Program-made: the position numbers and the translations under genes | Source of the DNA: a virus | DNA: 64,000 nt | Reading direction: 5' to 3' (one strand) | IMG/VR virus record: IMGVR_UViG_3300045988_126140 | Span: 64,001-128,000 of that record | The notes under the pieces: generated by a model | The model's input: only the letters and a program-made list of their open reading frames with translations | Databases searched by the model: none | Told to the model about the DNA's origin: nothing | Part shown: positions 1 through 58,912 of the stretch, piece by piece | How positions within the stretch are numbered: the stretch's first letter is position 1 | Layout: each line of letters starts with the position of its first letter

Positions 1-3000
1 CTGTTTTGAAAACTGTTTAATACTTCGTCTATATTACTTACATTTCCTTCTACATCAAATGTGAAACCATATTTAGATAAACTTTCTTGATATGTAGGAA
101 TCTTATTTTTCATATTAGTCATTAAATCCATTTGTTTAGATAGTTGTTCATTCATGAGTTTTAATTTTTCTTCTGTTAATTTAATTGTATCTACTCCATT
201 TGAATTTTCTAGTTTAACATCTATTATATCAATTTTATTTCCTAGTATATCAAATTGATTTTTTAATTTAGTTATGGCGTTGCTAAATTTATACAATTTA
301 TCTTCTCTAGTTAGCTTTTCAATTTCGTCATTATTTTCTTTGATTGTATTTTTCATTTCTTGCCATTGTTCTTCACAACTAAATAAATCACTTTGTTGTA
401 TATCATAATATTTATTAGCTAAATTTGTAAGTTTATCCAATTCTTCTTTATATTTACTAGCTTTATCACTTGCTGTATTATTTGAAGAACTACTAGAAGA
501 GTTACTTTTAGAAGATTTATCAGCTATATCTTGAAGTCGTTTATATTCTTTTTGCATAGCTAATAATTTTTCTTCATAGTTAGTCATATTCCCATCTTCA
601 TTAAATTGGAATCCTTCTTTTTGAAGCTTTTGTTGAAGTGTTTCTCTTTCAGAAATTAAATCGTCATAATATTCCTTTTGAAGTTTTGCTTGTTCTTCTA
701 GTAATTTATTTTTTTGTTTAAGGTATTTAATTTTTTCAGTACCTACTGCTTTTTCCATTTGTTTATCTAATAATGAAGTCTTCTTAGTTACTGTTTCAAT
801 TCTGTATTGCAATTCTTTAAATAGTTCAACAGAGTATTCAATCATATCTAATACATCTTGATATTTAAGACTTATAGGAGTTAAAGCAGTTTCTACATCA
901 CCTATGCTATTAAAATCTCTCGTAGCATATGTACTTATTCCACCAGAACCATCTGAAGTAGGAGTTGCTGTGTTTGCATCATTTGCAGTTACTACAGGTT
1001 GTGGAGTTACCATCGGTGTAGCACTCAACTGCTCTACAGAATAAGGATTATCTTCTATATTAGAAAATTCACCTATAGAATCTCCCCACATTACTGATTT
1101 TCCCTTTCCACTATGAGGAACTTTTGATTTACCTTTTTCTGTATAGGTTAAAGTAGCCATTATTGATATACTTCGTGGTATTTCTTTTATTTGTTGTTTC
1201 AAACTATCTAGTTTGCTTGCTACATCGGCACTATTACTAATTATTTTAATATATTTCTCTGGAATTTTTAATCCTTGAAGTGCATAAAGTTGCTGTAATG
1301 CTTGAAAAGCCATTACGGTAACATCTACAACTTTATTTTTTAATTGTATAGCATCTACAGTTCCAAGTTCATCTAATGCGTTAGATAATGCTACTCCAAC
1401 TTCAATTTGTTTTTCTGCTGGTAATCGCCCTATTAAGTCCATTACGGTTGCTATGTCACCTTGAGCTAAAGCTTTATCTATTTTTACTTTTATGTCTTTT
1501 TCATCTTTTTTATTTAATAGACTATCTATTTCAGCTTTAGCAGTTTTTATTGTATCTTCACCTAAAACATTTATATGACAACTTGTTACTGCTTCTGGAT
1601 GGTTAAATACCCATTGAATCATGTCTTCATAAGATTCTAATTTAGATAAATCTTCAATGTTATTTTTAAAGAATGTTTCAATGTCTTTATCTTTACCTCT
1701 TAAATTATCCATTAATTTGGCATAATTTTCAACTTGGTCAGTATTTTCTATATTCGCTCTTAAAGTTTTTACTATTTCATCTTTTCCGTCAAATTGTTTA
1801 AAACTTGCAAAAGCGTCATCTATTTTCTTTTTATCGTCATCAGATACAGCATATTCTCCTGTAACAAATAATTTACCTACGTCTATTTTACCTTTTCCAA
1901 ATTGTTTATCTACAAGATTTTGAACGTCTTGAATTAAATTATTTCTAGTTTCTTCATCATCTTCTACATAAATTTGAGATAATTTAGCTGTTAATTCCAT
2001 ATCGTCTAAAGAAAATTCATTGTCATCCATCAATCGATTTACCAAGTCTTTTACTTTGTCTGGTAAATTACTATCTTCTAAAGTGGCTTTAACTTCTTTG
2101 ATGTTATAAACCATTTTTCCGTCTTTTTCTACTGTATCAAGACCACTTAAATCTTGAAGAAAATTATTGTAAGCGTCCCATGTTGCCATTAAATCTTTAG
2201 TTTCTTTATCTGTCATGTTTATGTTTTTACCAAAAGAACGTAAATAAGCATCCATAGCATTTTGAGCCATTTTAGCACTTTCTGGCAATTCCACCATACT
2301 TCTAGCTACATCTTCATTTACTCCCCATAATTTAGCTAAAGAAGGGATTAATTTTTCAATTCCTTGTTCGTAAGCAGTAATGTCGCTTGTGTCTGCATAT
2401 GCTTGTTGCAAATCATACAATTTTCTTATTGACTTATCTATTGTTCCAGAATCAAACATTTTCTTCATATTTGATTCAAATAAACTTTGTTGTCCACTTG
2501 TTAATTGAGAAAAATCTAATCCATTTACAACTTCTATCATTTCAGATTGAACGTCACTTTTTAATTTACTAAAACCATCACCTATAGACAAAGAGTTTAC
2601 TATACTTTTATTTATTTTTTGAGATTCGGCACTTATTTTTGCTTCGGCATCTACAACTGCCTCTTTAGCACTAGCGTAAGTATCACTTAATTTAGCAAGC
2701 CTTTCTGAATAATCTTCTAGCCATGCTGAATCACCTGTTTGAGTAAATGTATTGTTAAGTTCACTTTTCTTTTTTCTGATGTTTTCTATTTGTCTATTAT
2801 ATTCCTTAATTGCTTGTTTATTGAAAGCCCCATCTTTACCAGCAAATCCTTGTCCTTCATTCATTTTGTCTGTAGCGTTTCTTTGTTGGTCTTTATATTC
2901 TTGATTCAGAGCCTCTTGTTGTTTCTTGATTAATTTATCATATTTTGCAATTAATTTATCAATATCTCCACCCATCGATAAAATCGGGTTATTATCTTTA

Positions 3001-3014
3001 TCATACAATATCTT
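1..3014 (-). CDS. tail tape measure protein, last exon visible (ORF runs off the window at position 1)
   Basis: I translated the minus strand by hand. It is open from 3014 to position 1 (KILYDKDNNPILSMGGDIDKLIAKYDKLIKKQQEALNQEYK...). It is coiled-coil-like and rich in K/E/Q/L. It is absent from the ORF track, probably because no stop falls inside the window. It follows in frame from the upstream exons once the intron is removed. Confidence 0.7.
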
Positions 3015-3362
3015 CACATAAGGTCGTTAATCTTATGCAGTTCTCTTATGAACTTCTCTAGTTTTCACTAGACGTTGAGACTATATCTTTACCTATTACT
3101 AGGCACATACCGCTTCCACTCACTTAAGTGTACTCTCTTTCGAGATAGTCGTTGAAGTTTAATTATTTTATTAATTATTTAAATTAAATCTTTTAAACAA
3201 TTAATAAAATAATTCTTACCTGCTGATTGCCCAATCCTTAAACTTTTTAAAACCATCACGCTTATCATTGCTAATTACGTTGTGGTATTAAGGCTCTAAG
3301 GGGTTTCCAGCAATTCAATATGTTTTCTAATAATAATTTCTTATTATAGGGGCTATTTATTA
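3015..3362 (-). ncRNA. group I intron, family A, in the tape measure gene (boundaries +/- a few nt)
   Basis: The minus-strand RNA carries all four classical group I core elements. P-like AAUUGCUGGAAA, Q AAUCAGCAGG, R UUCAACGACUA and S AAGAUAUAGUC, with GACUA/UAGUC able to form P7. A GNRA hairpin UCUC-GAAA-GAGA follows R. The 5' exon ends GGGU and can pair with GCCC 10 nt downstream, giving the U-G wobble. The intron ends in G. A stop codon lies just inside the intron, and removal restores the reading frame. Confidence 0.75.
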
Positions 3363-4253
3363 ACCCAAGACAATATCTTCGCCACAAATATCAATTATTT
3401 GTTGTTGTAACTCTTTAAATCTTTCTTGCTGTTCAGAAGTTTTATCTACTGTATCGTATAATTTTTTATATTCGTCTCTAATATTTGAAAGATTTGTTTT
3501 TGCTTTTGTTGAGCTATTTACTTTATTGTTTAAATTGGTTATATTTTCTGCATTTTCTTCTAAAGCATCATTAAGTTTATTAGCCTCGTCTGTAAAATGT
3601 TGAATAACTTTACCTATTCCCCATGATACGAGCATACCTATACCCATATTTACAACGCCCATAGCTAAATTCATAGCTCCTAAAGCTATTTTTGTTCCTA
3701 ATGCTTTAGCCTCTACACCTGCTAAAGCACTTCTAACTGCTGTTAATCCAGAGGCAAATACCCCAGATGATTGACGAGCTTCTTTAAATGAAGTACCTAT
3801 TCCTTTTATTACATTCCAAGATTTTCCAAGATAACTAGCTTGAAATCCTTCTCTTATTGTTGCAAAGAATCCTGGATTAGTAGTTCCAATCATTGTAGCA
3901 CTAGATGCTTGTCGTGTTGCAGTGGCTTGTCCTTCTAATGCAGTAGTTGTACTTAAAGCTTCGGCTTTTAATCTTCTTTCTTGATTAATTAATGCTTCAA
4001 ATCCACCGCTTCGATTAAATTTTAATGATTGAAAAAGACCAGAAATTGCACCTGCTATTACGGGTAATCCTACACCCATGTCATCTATATACTTAACAAA
4101 TTTATCTAACATGTCTAAAGCGCTTATACCAATGTCTAAAAATCCTTTTGCCGTATTTCCACTTACAGCAGTATTGACTATACTTCTCCATTTTTCTTGA
4201 AGTAATGTAAGTTTCCCTTGTACGGAGTCTATATATCTTGCATTCGTTATCTT
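3363..4253 (-). CDS. tail tape measure protein, exon 4
   Basis: This is track ORF 3360..4256 trimmed to the inferred splice sites. Ala/Gly-rich hydrophobic segments are typical of tape measure proteins. Confidence 0.7.
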
Positions 4254-4645
4254 CACATAAATTCGCTACATCTATGCAGTTCTCTTATGAACTTCCTATA
4301 CTTTCATATAGAGTCGAGACTATTTCTTCACCTTCAGCATTATCTGTTAAGGGCAAAGTATTTCCACTATCAATAGCTTATAGTGTACGGTTTCACAACC
4401 TAGTCGTTGAAAGTTTAATCTAATTTATTAATTATTTTTAAATCTTTAAATGATTTTTAACTGTATTAGATTAATACTTGCATGAACACCCATTGTTTAA
4501 GATTACTTAGGATTTAACCATATAATCATCCTTACGTTTTTTCTACTTTCGTACCTTCACGCTTATTGTTGCCAATTACGTTGTGGTGTAAGGCTTTAGG
4601 GATTACCTGCTTTTAACTTTGTGTCCTACGCACATTTCTGTACGT
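4254..4645 (-). ncRNA. group I intron, family A, in the tape measure gene (5' end uncertain, 4641-4650)
   Basis: It shares R (UUCAACGACUA), S-like (GAAGAAAUAGUCUC) and the 3' tail with the 3015..3362 intron. Its 5' half matches the capsid-gene intron (UAGGACACAA..GCAGGUAAU..UAAAGC..UACACCA). The hairpin after R covaries: GGUU-GUGA-AACC. Confidence 0.65.
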
Positions 4646-4769
4646 ACGGAGAATGTTGTTTCTCTTTCATTGAAGAGCCGAAAGTGTCACCATTTTCGTA
4701 CTCTTTCATAAATTTTTCAGCTTGACTCCAGTTACTCATTATTGCTGTGAAAACATTTAACTGGTTTTT
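4646..4769 (-). CDS. tail tape measure protein, micro-exon 3 (about 40 codons, ends approximate)
   Basis: An open stretch, KNQLNVFTAIMSNWSQAEKFMKEYENGDTFGSSMKE..., lies between two intron-like elements. It continues the '...AEAIAG' motif of exon 2 in the manner of tape measure core regions. Confidence 0.5.
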
Positions 4770-5107
4770 CGGTTTATTATCGTAAAGGCTTTTTATCCTC
4801 TACTTCTTATAGTTTCCTATAAGCCTAGCATACATTTTCACCCTCGTTTAACGTTAGGTATTGATGGTTGCAAACCCATCTCAAACATTACTATATAATG
4901 CTGTGGAGGAGGCTCGTGGTAGGATTATTGCTAACAATATCGCTCACCTACTATGCGTTACGGATGTTCTCTGTTAAGACACCCTCGGTATTACCACTAT
5001 CCATACAGGACTTAGGCTCTCTTACCACCTTAATCTTTTGATTTAGTTGACCGATACACCCCTCTAATCTACATGATATTTCTACCATGAGTGGCAAAAA
5101 TAATTTT
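4770..5107 (-). ncRNA. group I-like intron, family B, in the tape measure gene
   Basis: It shares blocks with the introns at 5279..5609 and 25922..27337: GGGG..AUCGGUC, GGUAAGAGAGCCUAAGUC, UAAUACCGAG and the 3' tail GAUAAUAAACCG. The upstream frame meets a stop shortly after the inferred 5' splice site. The core is less clearly canonical than in family A. Confidence 0.55.
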
Positions 5108-5278: not shown

Positions 5279-5609
5279 CGAATTGTTATTATCATGAAGT
5301 TTTTTATCTTCATCTCTGGAAGTTTCCTTCATTTTCATCGATTGGTCATTTCCAATCCAGTCTGGCGTACATATTCCATCTTATATAAGACAGTCGGAGA
5401 CTCTTGGAGGGATTATATTCTAATTTAGGTTCACCCTCTACGCTCTACATTATTAAATAAGTTTTAATTTATTCAATTAACTCGGTATTAACTTATCTTT
5501 ATTAATTATTTTTAAGACTTAGTCTTTCTTACCATATGTATTACTACATATACGACCGATTTTCCCCGAACCGGCAATATTATTTACCGTCTTTAGCACT
5601 TGTTTTCCA
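5279..5609 (-). ncRNA. group I-like intron, family B, in the tape measure gene
   Basis: The 5' exon end GCUGGU can pair with GCCGGU about 30 nt downstream, giving a U-G at the splice site. There is a GNRA hairpin AUAUGUA-GUAA-UACAUAU. The intron ends ...AAUAACAAUUCG. It is collinear with the terminase intron but lacks that intron's ORF. Confidence 0.6.
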
Positions 5610-24801: not shown

Positions 24802-25921
24802 TTAATTAGCCAAGAAAATATGTCTCTTTTTCTTATTCCTATTTTTCTTTCTTATATCTCTTTCTATCAATTCTGCTAAATAATTACCATAAGTAATAGA
24901 AGAATATCTATCCTTACGATTTCTTCCTTTTTCTTTAAGAACTATATCACCATTCCCCATAGTTTCATAATCTAAGTTTATTGATTCAAATATAAAATTA
25001 GATGTTTGAATAAATGGTGCTATTTTATTAGCATGATATTCTGCGTCTTGATGATATTTTAAGTCTTTACTAAAATCTCCTCTTTTTTCATTTTCTTCTA
25101 TTAATAATCTTATTTTTTTACTACTAAAAGCATTTTTAAGATATACTGCACAATCATTATTTATTTTTTGATTCCCTTTAATTACATATATACAATTTAT
25201 ACCATTTTTTAAAGGTTGAAAATCTTTTGATTGCGTACTCATATCATAAATACCAAAAGGTTCGTAATGTTCATCAATATTTTCGTCATAAGATGATTTT
25301 TCCATCTCTTGTATTACTGCTATACCTAAACCACCACCATCTATAATGATTTTATCAGCTTTAAATTCTGTATATAATCTCTTAATTCTAGTGGCTTGTT
25401 TTTCAAATTTCATACCATTATGTGATTCCATATAAACAACTTCTCTAATAATATTATTTCCACTAGGAAGTAATCTCCATAAAGTAAAAATAGAGTTATC
25501 ATTTTTATTTGATTTGTTAGCTTTTGCCGTTGCTACGTCAACTGAAATTATTCTTATTTCATCTTTCTTTTTAGGCATTCGTTTTAATTTTTCTTTCTTT
25601 TTATCTGGATTCCTATAATCGTCGTCCGTTAATGGATAATAACAATTCTTTAAAACTCTTGCATTCAACATATCTGCTGTATTAAAGAAACAATCTCCAC
25701 TTTGTCCATGCCATATAGCACCATATTCCATATTAAATACAAATTCACCCATATCCTCTTTATCTTCTTCAATCTTATCTTTTAAGACAAGTTTATGGTC
25801 TAAAGATGCCAAATAAGGAATTGCACAAGCAAATGCTTTTCCATTTTCAAACATTCTATTAAATATGGTTGTGAATTTTTCATAACTCCAGTGAACTTTT
25901 AACCACGCACTAGAAAGATAT
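24802..25921 (-). CDS. terL: terminase large subunit, exon 2 (nuclease half)
   Basis: This is track ORF 24802..25854 extended upstream to the inferred 3' splice site. The joined sequence reads ...PLESNMEI|YLSSAWLKVHWSYEKF.... Confidence 0.7.
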
Positions 25922-26175
25922 CAATTTGTTATTAACTATAGGTTTTTTATCCTATACTCTGGAGGTTTCCCTCATTTTCATCGGTTAGTCAATTCTAACC
26001 CAGTTTAGCATATATTTTCATTCTCTAAATTCTGTATAATGAATGTAGGATACTCTTGGGATACTAATTTTAGTATGTAAAATAATTACGGCATTATATT
26101 CTGTGGAGGGTAATTATCCCTCAAACAGTTTCAGCCCCTATGCGTTACAATACTTATAGTTTTTAAACATATAAG

Positions 26176-27156
26176 TTATCTCGGTATTAGCTTATTTATA
26201 AAATAATCATTTAAAGTTTTAATTGTATTTTCATAATAAGGTATTCTTAACATATTTATATTATTACTTTTACAATAATTATTTTTAATTCCATCTTTAA
26301 TTATTTGGATTTTAAATCCTTCTTCTCCTCCAAATAATTCTACTGGCATAAAATGTTGTCTACCATCGTATTCAACAACTAAATTATAATTAGGAATATA
26401 AAAATCAAATCTTAGTACATCATTATATTTACAATCATTGAATATGTATTCTCTTTCAAATCCAATATTTTTACTTAATAAATATTCCAGAATTTCTTGT
26501 TCCCCTTTGCTAATTGTAGCTTTTGACATTTTGTCATATCCTTTTCTAGCCATACATTTGGGGCAAATTATTTCAATATTGTTTTTAATTTTATCTTTAA
26601 TGTGATAAAAATTTTGCTCATATTCTTTTCCACATTTACATTTTAATTTTAATTTTTCGCCTGGAATATATTCAGTAGACAATAATTCACTTTCACCAGT
26701 ACTTTCACATATAAGTTTTACGTCATGGAAACTACAATAATGTCCATTATTGTTTTCTATATTTCTTTGTTTTCTTATTTTTTCAGCACATTTAGGACAA
26801 GTTTTTGTTTTACTTTTTTTAAATAATTCCCATGTTGTTTCATAAGTTTCACCACACGTTCCACATTTAACTAATAGTGAAGTATATACATTTTTATATT
26901 CAGTTGAAAGTAATTTATTACCATAAGATTCAATTTCACTTCTAACTTTATCTATACTCACTTTGTTATTAGAACAAGTTTGACAATAATATCTTTTTTT
27001 ATTTTTAAAATCTTGAAAACTTCTTTCAAATACATCTCCACATTTACAACGAATTTTCAATTTTTGTTTGTTATTAATATACTCTTTAGTTAATAAGGTA
27101 CAACCTTTTGATTCTATATATTCCTTAACTTTATCATAATCATATCTAACTCCCAT
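26176..27156 (-). CDS. intron-encoded nuclease: three zinc-ribbon repeats plus a PD-(D/E)xK (Vsr/DUF559-like) C-terminal domain
   Basis: Three repeats of Y..x..L.(I/V)(K/R)C.CG..(F/Y)E....F.....C..C are present. The C-terminus reads RFDFYIPNYNLVVEYDGRQHF. The ORF lies wholly inside the intron. Confidence 0.6.
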   Translation of the reverse strand: MGVRYDYDKVKEYIESKGCTLLTKEYINNKQKLKIRCKCGDVFERSFQDFKNKKRYYCQTCSNNKVSIDKVRSEIESYGNKLLSTEYKNVYTSLLVKCGTCGETYETTWELFKKSKTKTCPKCAEKIRKQRNIENNNGHYCSFHDVKLICESTGESELLSTEYIPGEKLKLKCKCGKEYEQNFYHIKDKIKNNIEIICPKCMARKGYDKMSKATISKGEQEILEYLLSKNIGFEREYIFNDCKYNDVLRFDFYIPNYNLVVEYDGRQHFMPVELFGGEEGFKIQIIKDGIKNNYCKSNNINMLRIPYYENTIKTLNDYFINKLIPR

Positions 27157-27180
27157 AAATTCACCCCCTTTTTTATATTA

Positions 27181-27220
27181 TTGTATTAACATAACTCAAT
27201 GATTAATTACTTATAAATTA
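27181..27220 (-). promoter_or_regulatory. class II bipartite promoter-like motif (TAAGTAAT-N15-GTTAATA) inside the terL intron
   Basis: On the minus strand: TAATTTATAAGTAATTAATCATTGAGTTATGTTAATACAA, about 25 nt upstream of the RBS of the intron ORF. Confidence 0.5.
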
Positions 27221-27337
27221 TTAATTATTTTATAAACTTAGCCTTTCTTACCATGTATATCACTATACATTTGACCGATTTTACCCTATTTTAAATATAA
27301 GCACTTATACTTTACTTATATTGAGACATATCTTTTT

Positions 27338-27978
27338 ATCTCCATATTTGATTCTAATGGATAATCTTTATATTCGGGTTTTTCTAAAAACGGAGGTTTT
27401 CTTGGATTTGTTAAGAATTGTTTTAAAACTGAATTTATTACATCTAATTTGATAAGCCTAAATTCATCTGCAACCAATACATTCCCTCTCAAGCCTCTCG
27501 CTCCATCATTAGAAGCTATAGCTGTTATTACAGAACCATTTTTAAATATACATTTAACATTATCTTTATTATTTTGAACTTTTTTAATTTCTTTTGCTAA
27601 CGCAGGGTAATCCCTTCGTAAATCTTCAATCTTTTCGGTTATAATTAATCCTGCCTGGTCTTTGTTACCAGATGCAACTATTATTTTAGAACCTGGATAT
27701 AATATTGCTCTACAACATACAAATATCGCAGTTAGAAATGACTTACCGAGACCACGTGACGCAATAAAGCAGAAACTTGTGCATATATTCATCATATAAA
27801 GTAATATTTGTTGAAACAAATATAAATTAATTCCTAACCAATCCATACAAAATCTATGTGGATTTTTTCTAAAATATTCTGTCCATATTTTTACACCATC
27901 TAATAAATTTTCATATGAATCTTTTTTTAAGTTTTTTCTTTGTTTGCATTTTAATCTATTCTCCATATCCTTTTTCAT
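27338..27978 (-). CDS. terL: terminase large subunit, exon 1 (ATPase half; start uncertain, 27978 or 27966)
   Basis: Walker A-like SRGLGKSF and Walker B VLVADEF are present. The layout LGINLYLFQQILL... is typical of TerL N-termini. Confidence 0.75.
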
Positions 27979-28801
27979 CCTCCTCTGTATAAGGAGTTGA
28001 ATCATTATTTATTAACTTTTTAATAGGATTTAAGAAGTAACGATTTAACCACCATTTAATTCTATCCACATCATCGTATTCTTGGTGGACATCTGGAATA
28101 GGTTCATTTTTTTCTACTTTAGCAATTAATGTACCATAACTTAAATTATCGTCTTCACCATATTTGCTCATTTTAGATGGTAAAACATTTAGTTCTTCCA
28201 TACGTTTAGAAATTTGATTAGTTAAGTTTTCAAATGCTTTTTGGTCATTCTTAACTATAGCTCTTTCTCTTAAAACTTCTAACATACATATTGTTTTAAT
28301 TAAATTAACTTCTTGAATGGCTTTAGACGGATAATTATCTGTGTATTGTTCATATTTTCTTTGGAGTAATTCATACTCATCATCTTGAAATCCCTTACCC
28401 CAAAAGTTAACAATCTCACTTGAAGTAACTGTCTCTCCAGTAATAATATTAGTTACACCATCATAAGTAAGCATATTATCTAAAGATGTTAACCCTTTAA
28501 ATGCTTTATCTCTATTCATTATTCTAGTATAATTACCTAAAAAATTATTGCCATATTTCTCAACACATTTTAGATATGTTTCTTCGTCATAATACATATC
28601 TAAAACCATACATAAATGTATAAATGCTAATCTACGGTCGTTGTTATAATTTTTTAATAACTTTTTAAAATATTTATCAACTACTTCTTTACTCATGGGT
28701 AATTTCTTATCATGCTCATAAAGCATTGATTGTGTAGAGTAGAAATCTCTAACGGTAGGTTTAAATTTACCTGTAGCTGAACATTGTTTTGTGTCTGCCA
28801 T
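27956..28801 (-). CDS. terminase small subunit, putative
   Basis: A 281-aa ORF immediately upstream of terL and overlapping it. Assigned by position only. Confidence 0.45.
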   Translation of the reverse strand: MADTKQCSATGKFKPTVRDFYSTQSMLYEHDKKLPMSKEVVDKYFKKLLKNYNNDRRLAFIHLCMVLDMYYDEETYLKCVEKYGNNFLGNYTRIMNRDKAFKGLTSLDNMLTYDGVTNIITGETVTSSEIVNFWGKGFQDDEYELLQRKYEQYTDNYPSKAIQEVNLIKTICMLEVLRERAIVKNDQKAFENLTNQISKRMEELNVLPSKMSKYGEDDNLSYGTLIAKVEKNEPIPDVHQEYDDVDRIKWWLNRYFLNPIKKLINNDSTPYTEEDEKGYGE

Positions 28802-28994: not shown

Positions 28995-30122
28995 TTATTC
29001 AACTTTCATTACATAACTTGCAACTACTCCATCTTCATCAAGTATTAATAATGTTTGAGAAGGTTTATTATATAATTTTTTCTTCATAGCATAATCGTCT
29101 GTTGAAATCAAACTACCATTTACATATATATCTGTGTTATATTGTGAAAACATCTTAGGTTGATGATAATGTCCTAATAAAATTAAATCTATGTTTTCAC
29201 CACCTATAACCATAGATAATTCTTCACTTACTTTATTTAAATTAACTTGGTCGCCATGACATGAAACAACTGTATTTCCTTTTACATTCATTACAGATAA
29301 TTCACCATTATTTATCGAATCTAAAAATACAACATTAGATAAATTTAATGTTCTCATTTTTATCATCTCATTTAATAACATAGAGTAATTATTACCATTA
29401 CTTCTATCGTCTTTCATCATTTCTACTGCTTCATGGTTACCATTATTTTGAGTTACAGTTAAATAAAAATAATTTGACAATTTCTCTATTACCTGTGATA
29501 TTATTTCACTAACACTTACTATTTGTTTTACTAAAGATTCTTGATTAGATAGCTTTATACTATTATGTAATTCACCAGATATTAAATCTCCGTTCAATAC
29601 TAAATGCAATTTATCTATGTTATTATCAATACAATGTTCTATTGTTTTATTAATTATTTTATCTAACCTTTCTATAGCTATATCTTTATTATATTTATTT
29701 ACTGAATTTTCTACAATCATAGAAATATGTAAATCGCTTAATATTAAAATTCCGTCTTTTCCACTTGAATCTTCTTTTAAAACATAACGATTTAATAATG
29801 GACTTCTTAAATTTAAATTATTAATTTCTTCTCTTATTAAATCCATTACATTTTCCATCCTAGACAATCCTCTTAATTGTCTATTCACTTCTGTTCTTAA
29901 ATCGGTTAGCTTTATTTTTTCCTTTTTTATTTCAGCTAATGTTTTACTGTCCATGTCATTTTCACTTATAGTTTCAGAATATAATTTAAATCCATATGCT
30001 AATTTTCTTAAATGGTCGTCTGAATAATCTGTTTCGTATTTTCTATTTATATCTTCCCATGACATATCATTTAATTTATTAAGTTTATTTAAACAATCCT
30101 GTATTAATCCCTTTTTATTCAT
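28995..30122 (-). CDS. calcineurin-like metallophosphoesterase
   Basis: The motifs LILSDLH, NGDLISG, GNHE and GHYH appear in canonical order. Confidence 0.75.
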   Translation of the reverse strand: MNKKGLIQDCLNKLNKLNDMSWEDINRKYETDYSDDHLRKLAYGFKLYSETISENDMDSKTLAEIKKEKIKLTDLRTEVNRQLRGLSRMENVMDLIREEINNLNLRSPLLNRYVLKEDSSGKDGILILSDLHISMIVENSVNKYNKDIAIERLDKIINKTIEHCIDNNIDKLHLVLNGDLISGELHNSIKLSNQESLVKQIVSVSEIISQVIEKLSNYFYLTVTQNNGNHEAVEMMKDDRSNGNNYSMLLNEMIKMRTLNLSNVVFLDSINNGELSVMNVKGNTVVSCHGDQVNLNKVSEELSMVIGGENIDLILLGHYHQPKMFSQYNTDIYVNGSLISTDDYAMKKKLYNKPSQTLLILDEDGVVASYVMKVE

Positions 30123-32590: not shown

Positions 32591-32630
32591 GTGTATTAAC
32601 ATTGATGGTAGATAAATTACCTATGAATTA
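32591..32630 (-). promoter_or_regulatory. class II bipartite promoter-like motif
   Basis: On the minus strand: TAATTCATAGGTAATTTATCTACCATCAATGTTAATACAC. Confidence 0.5.
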
Positions 32631-35123: not shown

Positions 35124-35163
35124 TATATTAACGAAATTATATTAAAAATTACCTATGATTTTA
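35124..35163 (-). promoter_or_regulatory. class II bipartite promoter-like motif
   Basis: On the minus strand: TAAAATCATAGGTAATTTTTAATATAATTTCGTTAATATA. Confidence 0.5.
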
Positions 35164-35410: not shown

Positions 35411-35451
35411 TATGTATTAACATAACTGTATCAAAAATTACCTATGAATTA
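35411..35451 (-). promoter_or_regulatory. class II bipartite promoter-like motif
   Basis: On the minus strand: TAATTCATAGGTAATTTTTGATACAGTTATGTTAATACATA. Confidence 0.5.
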
Positions 35452-35533: not shown

Positions 35534-35575
35534 TATATAATTAACAACTAATAATGAAAAATTACCTATGAATTA
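35534..35575 (-). promoter_or_regulatory. class II bipartite promoter-like motif
   Basis: On the minus strand: TAATTCATAGGTAATTTTTCATTATTAGTTGTTAATTATATA. Confidence 0.45.
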
Positions 35576-55991: not shown

Positions 55992-56031
55992 TAATTCATA
56001 GGTAATTTTACTTAAAGTTATGTTAATATAA
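55992..56031 (+). promoter_or_regulatory. class II bipartite promoter-like motif
   Basis: TAATTCATAGGTAATTTTACTTAAAGTTATGTTAATATAA lies upstream of paralog 2. Confidence 0.5.
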
Positions 56032-58873: not shown

Positions 58874-58912
58874 GTTTATAGGTAATTTTTCAATACTAAT
58901 TGTTAATATATT
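58874..58912 (+). promoter_or_regulatory. class II bipartite promoter-like motif
   Basis: GTTTATAGGTAATTTTTCAATACTAATTGTTAATATATT. Confidence 0.45.

What the first reader, a model, noticed from the sequence alone, without database searches (positions are those of the whole stretch)
25922..27337. Large terminase split by a family B intron that carries a nuclease ORF with its own promoter-like motif
The TerL ATPase half (27338-27978) and nuclease half (24802-25921) are separated by 1.4 kb.

The flanks are collinear with the ORF-less tape measure intron 5279-5609. The 326-aa ORF sits exactly where that intron has a short loop, between ..TAATACCGAG and ..AATAATTAATAA... A P1 helix GAGAU/GUCUC with a U-G at the 5' splice site and a terminal G give an in-frame join, ..SNMEI|YLSSAW...

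The ORF combines three zinc-ribbon repeats with a C-terminal PD-(D/E)xK-type block (..VVEYDGRQHF..). I do not recognise this architecture as one of the classical LAGLIDADG, GIY-YIG or HNH intron endonucleases.

A copy of the TAGGTAAT-N15-GTTAATA motif (here TAAGTAAT) lies inside the intron just upstream of the ORF. This suggests the ORF is transcribed independently of terL.
Basis: partly seen in the sequence, partly recalled or inferred. Interest (0 to 1): 0.75.

Follow-up and report, generated by a model that had tools for sequence, protein, structure and literature searches.

The report
Mobile group I intron in terminase
The phage's DNA-packaging (large terminase) gene is interrupted by a self-splicing group I intron that carries its own homing-nuclease gene; this is real and well supported by comparison, but it is a known kind of mobile element in a known kind of place.

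Summary
terL is split at 25922-27337 (minus strand). Joining 27338 to 25921 restores the invariant TerL block ..EIYLSS.W..HWS with no gap against uninterrupted homologues.

The insert is a group I intron, although Rfam RF00028 does not detect it. Comparison with more than 100 homologous phage elements recovers P1 to P10, the P3/P7 pseudoknot and a P7.1 helix (a subgroup IA trait). In the formal test, 86% of cells are paired against 33-43% when partners are slid, and 46 of 65 pairs show changes on both sides.

Near-identical phages carry an empty site, an ORF-less copy or the ORF-bearing copy. There is a co-conversion-like cluster of silent changes at the junction. An exon base that pairs with the guide sequence tracks intron presence perfectly, in 12 of 12 intron-bearing and 6 of 6 empty alleles.

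The 326-aa ORF sits in loop L5 and has three zinc ribbons followed by a Vsr-like nuclease. It belongs to the known EDxHD homing-endonuclease family (PHROG 559), which has already been reported in terL introns of Bacillus phages.

The TAGGTAAT-N15-GTTAATA motif is a real repeated motif that lies ahead of genes. Its promoter function, and independent transcription of the ORF, remain untested.

Verdict: a new member of a known kind, of modest interest.

The parts
27338..27978 (-). terL exon 1 (ATPase half: Walker A ASRGLGKS, Walker B VLVADEF). The start codon is uncertain: 27978, or 27966 as called in relatives.
   Evidence: Pfam Terminase_6N 2e-10 and TerL_ATPase 8e-7. Alignment to phiCD211 and SPbeta TerL. 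Gene calls in L140.
25922..27337 (-). Group I intron, 1416 nt, IA-like. It begins after U27338 and ends with omega-G 25922.
   Evidence: Comparative structure on 34 homologues: 86.3% of cells paired against 33-43% when slid, and 0 of 500 shuffles reach the observed values. My own covariance model, trained without this copy, scores it 76 bits, E 1e-12. Empty-site alleles exist in relatives.
27323..27342 (-). P1 and P10 guide region. Exon GAGAU 27342-27338 pairs with the internal guide sequence (IGS) GUCUC 27327-27323. Intron AAAGAUAU 27335-27328 pairs with the first 8 nt of exon 2.
   Evidence: Read from the sequence. G at -3 is present in all 12 intron-bearing alleles and A in all 6 empty alleles.
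27294..27322 (-). P2 hairpin, AAUAUAAG / CUUAUAUU.
   Evidence: Read from the sequence. This hairpin is present only in the terL intron and its close copies.
27274..27287 (-). P3 5' strand AGGGUA (27287-27282), J3/4 AAA, and P4 5' strand UCGGU (27278-27274; the 'P' element AAAAUCGGU).
   Evidence: P3 covaries with UAUCCU 26052-26047. Of 24 distinct strand combinations, 20-22 are canonical at each position. Helices 2-3.
27253..27270 (-). Extra hairpin capped by GUGA, lying between P4 and P5. It is found only in the terL/TMP subtype of the family.
   Evidence: Compensatory differences between the terL copy (AUGUAUA/UAUACAU) and the TMP copy (AUAUGUA/UACAUAU).
27184..27213 (-). Copy of the repeated motif TAGGTAAT-N15-GTTAATA (here TAAGTAAT), a candidate internal promoter. 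The Shine-Dalgarno sequence GGGGGUG lies at 27168-27162.
   Evidence: Seven copies against 1.26 expected. All are co-oriented with and 27-159 nt upstream of ORFs. The motif is absent from ORF-less copies and present in all ORF-bearing copies.
26176..27156 (-). Homing-endonuclease gene, 326 aa: three zinc-ribbon (CapR/DUF4379-like) repeats followed by a Vsr-like (EDxHD) nuclease. It lies in L5. The stretch 26181-26191, inside its last six codons (..KLIPR and the stop), doubles as P5', J5/4 and P4'.
   Evidence: PHROG 559 at 1e-61. AlphaFold2 model with pLDDT 89. The best PDB fold match is Vsr 1vsr, probability 1.0. hhalign to I-Bth0305I gives E 1e-3 with catalytic residues in register.
26181..26191 (-). 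P5 3' strand GCU, J5/4 AAU, and P4 3' strand ACCGA (the 'Q' element AAUACCGAG).
   Evidence: Nearly invariant across the family. P5 pairs covary, for example GGC/GCU, GAC/GUU and GGU/ACU.
26152..26176 (-). P6 hairpin, ACUUAUA / UAUAAGU.
   Evidence: Helix 5: all 7 pairs show changes on both sides, although the alignment is loose in the inner part.
26008..26143 (-). Catalytic core. It comprises the P7 5' strand GCAUA (26143-26139), P7.1 with two inserted hairpins (26138-26059), the P3 3' strand UAUCCU (26052-26047), P8 CAUUC/GAAUG (26045-26019), J8/7 AAAAUA, and the P7 3' strand UAUGC (26012-26008).
   Evidence: P7 is 100% paired, with compensated variants GCAUA/UAUGC, GCGUA/UACGC, GACUA/UAGUC, GAGUA/UACUC and GCACA/UGUGC. 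P7.1 shows 26 strand combinations.
25922..26003 (-). P9 domain. P9 is CUG/CAG and encloses P9a (GGUUAG/CUAACC), the invariant GAUGAAAAU, and P9b (GAGG-GAAA-CCUC). P9.2 (UAUAGG/CCUAUA) follows, then the tail GUUAAUAACAAAUUG ending in omega-G.
   Evidence: P9a and P9.2 are 99% canonical over 28 and 32 strand combinations. The block occurs in more than 118 IMG/VR contigs.
24802..25921 (-). terL exon 2: coupling motif YLSSAW and the nuclease half.
   Evidence: Pfam Terminase_6C. Alignment. There is no start codon with a ribosome-binding site at the junction.

Best explanation
The insert at 25922-27337 (minus strand) is a mobile group I intron of the IA type in the large-terminase gene.

After transcription the RNA folds into the group I core (P3-P8 with the P3/P7 pseudoknot, P4-P6, and a P9 domain). 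The 5' exon end GAGAU pairs with the guide GUCUC, and the start of the 3' exon pairs with the adjacent guide bases (P10). A free guanosine attacks after U27338. The freed exon then attacks after the terminal G25922. This joins AU|A and restores codon Ile214 inside the conserved ATPase coupling motif ..EIYLSS...

Loop L5 carries a gene for a homing endonuclease of the EDxHD (Vsr-like) family, with three zinc-ribbon DNA-binding modules. When this phage meets a relative with an uninterrupted terL, the enzyme is expected to cut near the empty site. Repair then copies the intron, together with a short stretch of flanking exon, into the recipient.

The ORF has its own ribosome-binding site and is preceded by a motif that recurs upstream of other genes of this phage. 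It is therefore probably also expressed from its own transcript.

Shown here: the split gene, the exact in-frame junction, the RNA architecture with covariation, the fold and family of the protein, and the presence/absence polymorphism with a co-conversion signature. Inferred: splicing itself, cleavage activity and target, and promoter function.
For: Gene and junction.

RNA structure: the P, Q, R and S elements and every helix can be mapped. The formal count on 34 sequences gives 86.3% of cells paired, against 69.0% in shuffles and 33-43% when partners are slid. The covariation score is 0.494 against 0.181. Of 65 pairs, 46 have changes on both sides, and 0 of 500 shuffles reach the observed values. 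Anchored counts for P3, P7, P7.1, P9a and P9.2 are. My own model R1, trained without this copy, finds it at 76 bits, E 1e-12. The same model finds the two annotated introns of AR9 gyrA and the split terL of phage vB_CpeS-1181.

Mobility: uninterrupted terL alleles at 98.3-99.0% DNA identity (L123, L124, L125, L137), ORF-less copies of 408-409 nt (L135, L136), and ORF-bearing copies (L134, L139, L101, L108, L140-143). Eight of 17-18 differences from three of the four empty alleles (8 of 30 for L137) fall at CDS nt 612-657, around the junction at 641/642. The G at -3 that pairs with the guide is present in 12 of 12 intron-bearing alleles, and A is present in 6 of 6 empty alleles.

Protein: PHROG 559 at 1e-61. 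AlphaFold2 pLDDT is 89 and the best PDB fold match is Vsr. I-Bth0305I hits the same part of PHROG 559 at 2.7e-11. It aligns to this family with D251=D196, D264=N208 and D288=D222.

Precedent: PHROG 559 VSR-type nucleases occur inside terL group I introns, and splicing of a terL intron was confirmed in phage SIOphi (PMC11878797).

Motif.
Against: Rfam RF00028 gives no match, even at E up to 10, for this intron or for its ORF-less relative.

P4 and the P9 stem are invariant, so they have no covariation support.

The hairpin between P4 and P5 is unusual for group I introns.

Sequence-only links of the nuclease domain to solved structures fail.

The sigma-70 consensus scan shows no enrichment in the intron.

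There are no RNA or activity data.
Confidence: 0.9

Rival explanations
1. The insert is a free-standing homing-endonuclease cassette that has split terL into two genes. Their products would assemble into a working terminase without any RNA splicing, as in the split nrdA of phage Aeh1 or 'fractured' genes.
For: Gene callers and deposited annotations treat the halves as separate genes. PHROG holds separate families for the N and C halves (phrog_15503, phrog_26582).
Against: About 435 nt of non-coding flanks are conserved as RNA structure with compensatory changes across more than 100 elements in unrelated genes. Exon 2 has no start codon with a ribosome-binding site at the junction: the first ATG is 22 codons in, with no Shine-Dalgarno sequence. 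The junction falls inside a codon within an invariant motif. ORF-less copies of the same insert exist at the same site. The exon base at -3 tracks the guide sequence.
Confidence: 0.04
2. The element is a group I intron whose nuclease gene is a decaying passenger or has been recruited as a maturase. Under this view the intron no longer moves, and the presence/absence pattern reflects losses only.
For: ORF-less derivatives keep the last codons of the ORF, which suggests ORF deletion events. The ORF copies differ at too few codons to show purifying selection: 1 synonymous against 2-4 non-synonymous.
Against: The ORF is intact at 326 aa in every copy seen. All family-invariant catalytic and zinc-binding residues are present. 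The cluster of silent exon changes next to the site, in otherwise 99% identical genes, is what homing with co-conversion leaves behind.
Confidence: 0.1
3. The TAAGTAAT-N15-GTTAATA copy is not a promoter. Under this view the ORF is translated only from the terL pre-mRNA or the excised intron, and the motif is another kind of site or a remnant of the cassette's origin.
For: The motif does not resemble the sigma-70 consensus, and the promoter scan is not enriched. This copy has a mismatch in the first block. There is no transcript-start evidence.
Against: All seven good copies are co-oriented with, and 27-159 nt upstream of, ORFs with Shine-Dalgarno sequences. Seven copies are found against 1.26 expected. 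Internal promoters for intron nucleases are established in T4 (I-TevI; from my own knowledge).
Confidence: 0.35

Closest known systems
Group I introns in terL of Bacillus Bastillevirinae phages carrying PHROG 559 'VSR' nucleases (PMC11878797, NAR 2025)
   Same: The host gene class (large terminase) is the same, and so is the nuclease family: PHROG 559, 1e-61 here. In both cases the ORF sits in a loop of a group I ribozyme, and standard models recognise the ribozyme incompletely. Splicing of a terL intron (phage SIOphi) was shown there.
   Different: The TerL lineage is different: SPbeta/phiCD211-like, against phrog_675 there. I did not test whether the ribozymes are the same family. The host is AT-rich (26.5% GC) and probably clostridial.
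I-Bth0305I and its intron in the recA/UvsX gene of Bacillus phage 0305phi8-36 (EDxHD prototype; PDB 3R3P; PMC3239194)
   Same: Both have a Vsr-like catalytic domain with the same catalytic residues in register, and both match PHROG 559 in the same region. In both, the ORF interrupts P5 of a group I intron.
   Different: The N-terminal DNA-binding part is NUMOD/helix-turn-helix in I-Bth0305I and three zinc ribbons here. The intron RNA is not of the same family: my model R1 finds nothing in that locus.
Introns of Bacillus phage AR9/PBS1 gyrA, the Yersinia phage phiR1-37 element, and the Clostridium perfringens phage vB_CpeS-1181 terL insert
   Same: These are the same ribozyme family by sequence (72-82% identity over the 3' domain). 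For AR9 gyrA and vB_CpeS-1181 they are also the same family by my model R1, at 52-130 bits. The AR9 gyrA CDS is deposited as a join of three pieces, that is, with two introns.
   Different: The host genes and ORF content differ. In vB_CpeS-1181 the terL halves are annotated as separate genes with a 'hypothetical protein' between them.
Phage T4 td intron / I-TevI (subgroup IA2)
   Same: It is a group I intron of subgroup IA in an essential phage gene, with a loop-encoded homing endonuclease that has its own expression signals inside the intron, and homing is accompanied by co-conversion. This comparison rests on my own knowledge.
   Different: The nuclease is GIY-YIG, the ORF lies in P6a, and there are P7.1 and P7.2 helices. 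Rfam-type models recognise introns of that kind; two such introns were found in loci L042 and L082.

Membership tests
Group I intron | P1 with a U.G pair at the 5' splice site, formed with an internal guide sequence, and P10 with the 3' exon. | tested here: met
   GAGAU/GUCUC with U27338.G27327, plus an 8-bp P10. The tape-measure copy has its own matching P1 (CUGGU/GCCGG) and P10 (AGUAUU/AAUAUU). The exon base at -3 tracks intron presence in 12 of 12 and 6 of 6 alleles.
Group I intron | Terminal G (omega-G) at the 3' splice site. | tested here: met
   G25922. The join is in frame and gap-free against homologues.
Group I intron | Core helices in the order P3-P4-P5-P6-P7-P3'-P8-P7', with the P3/P7 pseudoknot. 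| tested here: met
   All are mapped. P3 is 81-90% paired, with 5 of its 6 pairs changed on both sides. P7 is 100% paired, with 3 of 5 pairs changed on both sides. Slid controls give 33-43%.
Group I intron | Conserved P/Q/R/S sequence elements (J3/4-P4, P4'-P6, J6/7-P7, J8/7-P7'). | tested here: met
   The elements are AAAAUCGGU, AAUACCGAG, GUAACGCAUAG and GAAAAUAUAUGC. Some family members carry the classical GACUA...AUAUAGUC. The comparison with the consensus rests on the Rfam alignment shown and on my own knowledge.
Group I intron | Match to the curated covariance model (Rfam RF00028). | tested here: not met
   There is no hit at the gathering score or at E up to 10, although the model finds other introns in the same loci. 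PMC11878797 documents that this model is incomplete for phage introns.
Group I intron | Guanosine-dependent self-splicing. | not testable with these tools
   This needs in vitro transcription and splicing, or RT-PCR.
Subgroup IA | Extra helix or helices (P7.1, with P7.1a or P7.2) between P7 and P3'. | tested here: met
   The P7.1 hairpin lies directly after the P7 5' strand. It is 97% paired, and 4 of its 5 pairs show changes on both sides. Some members have an optional inner hairpin. No separate P7.2 was seen, so I did not attempt a finer assignment (IA1, IA2 or IA3).
EDxHD (Vsr-like) homing endonucleases | C-terminal domain with the Vsr-type nuclease fold. | tested here: met
   The AlphaFold2 model has pLDDT 89. 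The top PDB match by Foldseek is 1vsr, with probability 1.00 and target-normalised TM-score 0.57, though E is only 0.038. 3R3P itself was not in the top 50.
EDxHD (Vsr-like) homing endonucleases | Composite catalytic motif E, D, x, H, D. | tested here: met
   E219 and H268 are nearly invariant. D251 and D288 are invariant. D264 takes the x position. In hhalign, D251 aligns to D196, D264 to N208 and D288 to D222 of I-Bth0305I. The His is displaced by one residue.
EDxHD (Vsr-like) homing endonucleases | Detectable homology to the prototype I-Bth0305I. | tested here: met
   Both proteins match the nuclease part of PHROG 559, this ORF over profile positions 132-406 and I-Bth0305I over 309-411 (1e-61 and 2.7e-11). 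The direct profile-to-sequence comparison gives E 1.1e-3 with probability 20%. Plain HMM searches of PDB sequences find nothing.
EDxHD (Vsr-like) homing endonucleases | N-terminal NUMOD/helix-turn-helix DNA-binding modules, as in I-Bth0305I. | tested here: not met
   The N-terminus is three zinc-ribbon repeats of the CapR/DUF4379/DUF723 type. This feature belongs to the prototype rather than defining the family.
EDxHD (Vsr-like) homing endonucleases | Site-specific cleavage of the intron-less allele. | not testable with these tools
   Only indirect support is available: empty alleles and a co-conversion-like tract.
HNH endonucleases (the label carried by PHROG 559 and many GenBank records) | His-Me finger (beta-beta-alpha-metal) motif. 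| tested here: not met
   There is no HNH Pfam match. The fold is Vsr / PD-(D/E)xK. PMC11878797 likewise reports only a VSR signature for PHROG 559. The 'HNH' name is a mislabel.

The most novel reading that the evidence does not exclude
The ribozyme may belong to a large subclass of phage group I introns that is uncurated and structurally distinct. Its traits are an IA-like core with a single P7.1, a P9 three-way junction with the invariant module GAUGAAAAUGA-GARG-GAAA-CYUC, and an often minimal P5. It occurs in more than 118 IMG/VR contigs and in phages of Bacillus, Clostridium and Yersinia, and current covariance models miss it entirely.

Its nuclease may be an uncharacterised branch of the EDxHD family that reads DNA with three tandem zinc ribbons and is expressed from a phage-specific promoter carried inside the intron.
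Probability: 0.4. Interest if true: 0.45.

Novelty: new member of a known kind. Interest (0 to 1): 0.3.

Why it matters
For annotation: the two terL halves and the 'hypothetical' or 'HNH' ORF between them should be joined and renamed. The same applies to deposited genomes such as vB_CpeS-1181.

For RNA databases: this family is abundant, yet Rfam's group I model does not detect it. A seed alignment like the one built here would recover many missed phage introns, including at least three in this window.

For phage biology: this group of phages, with genomes of about 135 kb, shows up to three polymorphic intron sites in terL. Empty, ORF-less and ORF-bearing states occur at 98-99% identity, which makes it a good natural system for studying the homing cycle.

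For enzymology: an EDxHD nuclease with three zinc ribbons has, to my knowledge, not been characterised.

None of this changes current concepts.

Tried and rejected
Rfam gave nothing, either at the gathering score on the whole window or at E up to 10 on the terL and tape-measure regions.

My first hand-drawn structure was wrong. I took CUGG/CCAG as P7 and AUCGGU/AYCGAU as P3. Covariation showed that the G/A before and the C/U after the hairpin pair with each other (P9a), so I dropped that structure. The correct P7 emerged from family members carrying GACUA...AUAUAGUC.

A single large regular expression for all helices failed. A loose anchor mis-parsed P7 and P7.1. One search repaired this.

Sequence searches of the ORF and of its family profile against PDB chains gave only spurious zinc-finger or Cas7 hits.

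NCBIfam gave only weak zinc-ribbon hits.

The sigma-70 promoter scan was not enriched, and no terminators were found.

Megablast of the region against phage genomes found almost nothing.

The supplement of PMC3239194 is not held.

Group II intron, intein and translational bypass were considered and rejected. There are no GUGYG/domain V features, there are in-frame stops, and the insert is 1.4 kb long.

A dN/dS estimate on the ORF was uninformative because too few differences exist.
Full report
**What is there.** The window is AT-rich phage DNA (26.5% GC) with a minus-strand structural module.

- The ORF ending at 27316 carries the TerL ATPase domain (Terminase_6N 2e-10, TerL_ATPase 8e-7).
- The ORF 24802-25854 has a Terminase_6C match just under Pfam's gathering cut-off (21.8 against 22.6 bits).
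- Between them lies a 326-aa ORF (26176-27156), flanked by about 180 and 250 nt of non-coding sequence.

Joining 27338 to 25921 gives an in-frame 586-aa protein..SNMEI|YLSSAW... In tblastn this protein matches uninterrupted terminases of phiCD211 and SPbeta-like phages in a single piece, at about 41% identity.

**Is the insert an intron?** Rfam gives no answer. RF00028 does not match this insert or the ORF-less tape-measure (TMP) relative, even at E up to 10. The same model does find two other group I introns in related loci.

I therefore collected homologues. A 26-nt block from the 3' part occurs in more than 118 IMG/VR contigs. Distant blastn also finds the element in other phages:

- AR9 and PBS1, inside gyrA, whose CDS is deposited as a join of three pieces;
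- phiR1-37;
- the split terL of Clostridium perfringens phage vB_CpeS-1181.

My first structure was wrong. I had taken CUGG/CCAG for P7. Family members that carry GACUA...AUAUAGUC at one covarying helix showed that this helix is P7, and the rest then fell into the canonical order. On the terL copy the elements are:

- P1: GAGAU with GUCUC.
- P10: intron AAAGAUAU with exon AUAUCUUU, 8 bp.
- P2.
- P3: AGGGUA with UAUCCU, forming the pseudoknot.
- J3/4: AAA.
- P4: UCGGU with ACCGA.
- An extra hairpin capped by GUGA.
- P5: GGC with GCU. The ORF lies in loop L5.
- P6.
- P7: GCAUA with UAUGC.
- P7.1, between P7 and P3', which is a subgroup IA trait.
- P8.
- J8/7: AAAAUA.
- A P9 three-way junction with a GAAA-capped arm.
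- P9.2.
- The terminal G25922.

**Formal test of the structure.** I counted pairs on a 34-sequence MAFFT alignment, with the pseudoknot written in.

| Measure | Observed | Shuffled | Partners slid |
|---|---|---|---|
| Cells paired | 86.3% | 69.0% | 33-43% |
| Covariation score | 0.494 | 0.181 | 0.085-0.150 |

Of 65 pairs, 46 show changes on both sides, and 0 of 500 shuffles reach any observed value. This count is conservative, because eight rows of the terL/TMP subtype are misaligned in the P2-P4 region.

Counts anchored on invariant flanks agree:

- P3 has 24 strand combinations, with 20-22 canonical at each position.
- P7 has five fully compensated variants.
- P7.1 has 26 combinations.
- P9a and P9.2 are 99% canonical over 28 and 32 combinations.

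I also built a covariance model of the Q-to-S core from 28 members, excluding the terL copy. It finds the terL intron at 76 bits (E about 1e-12), the tape-measure intron, and a further copy at 4821-4994. It also finds both AR9 gyrA introns and the vB_CpeS-1181 insert.

P4 and the P9 stem never vary, so they are neither supported nor contradicted.

**Evidence of mobility.** Seventeen loci from closely related genomes of about 135 kb were retrieved, and they fall into three states.

- Four have an uninterrupted terL at 98.3-99.0% DNA identity.
- Two have an ORF-less copy of the same intron at the same site (408-409 nt).
- Others carry the ORF-bearing form.

Against three of the four empty alleles, 8 of the 17-18 differences in 1761 nt lie at CDS positions 612-657, around the junction at 641/642 (for the fourth, L137, the same 8 are among 30 differences). 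All eight are silent. That is what co-conversion during homing leaves behind.

The exon base at -3 is G (GAG AU|) in all 12 intron-bearing alleles and A (GAA AU) in all 6 empty ones. This G pairs with C27325 of the guide, so the association is independent support for P1.

ORF-less copies still keep the last codons of the ORF, because those nucleotides are P5', J5/4 and P4'. ORFs that overlap the core are a known arrangement (PMC3984707).

**The protein.** The best family match is PHROG 559 (1e-61), labelled 'HNH endonuclease'. Pfam gives only sub-threshold hits to zinc-ribbon families and DUF5889.

An alignment of 73 homologues shows three repeats, each with four conserved Cys. It also shows a C-terminal block with invariant D251, E262, G265, D288 and K291, and nearly invariant E219 and H268. 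Homologues score above Pfam's thresholds for the CapR and DUF4379 zinc-ribbon families.

The AlphaFold2 model is confident (pLDDT 89). Its best match among PDB structures is E. coli Vsr (probability 1.00, target-normalised TM-score 0.57), followed by other PD-(D/E)xK enzymes, although the E-value is only 0.038.

I located I-Bth0305I, the EDxHD prototype, in phage 0305phi8-36 (gp29). It hits the same region of PHROG 559 at 2.7e-11. It aligns to this family with the catalytic residues in register: D251=D196, D264=N208 and D288=D222 (E 1.1e-3, probability 20%).

The ORF is therefore an EDxHD (Vsr-like) homing endonuclease with a different DNA-binding N-terminus from the prototype. The 'HNH' label is a mislabel.

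This exact pairing has already been reported: PHROG 559 with only a VSR signature, found only inside group I introns of terL, in Bastillevirinae, where splicing of a terL intron was shown (PMC11878797). As in I-Bth0305I, the ORF interrupts P5 (PMC3239194).

**The motif.** With at most 2 mismatches, TAGGTAAT-N15-GTTAATA occurs 7 times against 1.26 expected. All seven copies have at most 1 mismatch. All are co-oriented with the local genes and lie 27-159 nt upstream of ORFs that have Shine-Dalgarno sequences.

The intron copy ends 27 nt before the ATG. It is identical in all ORF-bearing copies and absent from ORF-less ones, so it travels with the ORF cassette.

The motif does not resemble the sigma-70 consensus, and the generic scan is not enriched. 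Promoter function is a reasonable inference. T4 intron nucleases have internal promoters, as far as I know. It is not shown here.

The element works like, and passes the structural tests for, a subgroup IA-type group I intron with an EDxHD homing endonuclease. It is a new member of a known kind.

Three points are mildly noteworthy:

- The ribozyme family is abundant yet invisible to Rfam.
- The three-zinc-ribbon EDxHD architecture is uncharacterised.
- This phage group offers empty, ORF-less and ORF-bearing alleles at several terL sites.

Noticed in passing
window 4781-5100 (minus strand): There is a second intron of the same ribozyme family in the tape-measure gene, just downstream of the one at 5279-5609. 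My model R1 hits 4821-4994 at 62.7 bits (E 4e-10), but the P9 region differs. Exon 2 of the tape-measure gene would then be only about 60 codons long.
   Followed up: partly
window about 4240-4650 (minus strand): A probable third tape-measure intron, of a different type. Read by eye, it has classical group I R/S elements CAACGACUAGG ... GAAAUAGUCUCG. Neither Rfam nor my model detects it. A short candidate exon, ..NWSQAEKFMKEYENGDTFGSSMKEKQ.., lies at 4626-4739, and the last exon is 3360-4256.
   Followed up: no
L129-L131, L133, L135, L136, L142 (relatives of the window phage): terL of related phages has two further polymorphic intron sites, after CDS nt 234-241 and nt 485-487. In L142 the insert after about CDS nt 485 (I did not map its exact junction) belongs to the same ribozyme family (R1, 64.7 bits), and the called ORF lying in that stretch has only a faint Pfam LAGLIDADG_3 hit. 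The window phage lacks both.
   Followed up: partly
window 32594-32623, 35126-35155, 35415-35444, 35539-35568 (minus strand); 55999-56028, 58879-58908 (plus strand): These are six further copies of TAGGTAATTTTT-N-TGTTAATA, all upstream of and co-oriented with ORFs, and three of them lie in tandem at 35.1-35.6 kb. This is probably a phage-specific promoter class. SPbeta-like phages encode their own RNA polymerase, YonO, as far as I know. I did not look for a polymerase or sigma gene in the window.
   Followed up: partly
L120 (Clostridium phage vB_CpeS-1181, MW478292.1) 839-3793: The deposited genome annotates two 'terminase large subunit' genes with a 'hypothetical protein' between them. The 3' flank is the best match to my model of this intron family (129.9 bits), so this is an unannotated group I intron with an ORF in terL.
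   Followed up: partly
L042 851-1149 and L082 8599-8903: Classical group I introns, recognised by RF00028 at 92.8 and 68 bits, sit within 0.5-1.3 kb of introns of the unrecognised family in the same phage contigs. Single phage loci can therefore hold introns of both types.
   Followed up: no
window 27956-28801 and 28995-30122 (minus strand): The gene upstream of terL is a YonG_N-type protein, and the next one is a faint metallophosphatase match (from gene calls in L140). This fits an SPbeta/phiCD211-like packaging module. The terL start codon is ambiguous (27978, 27966 or 28005).
   Followed up: no
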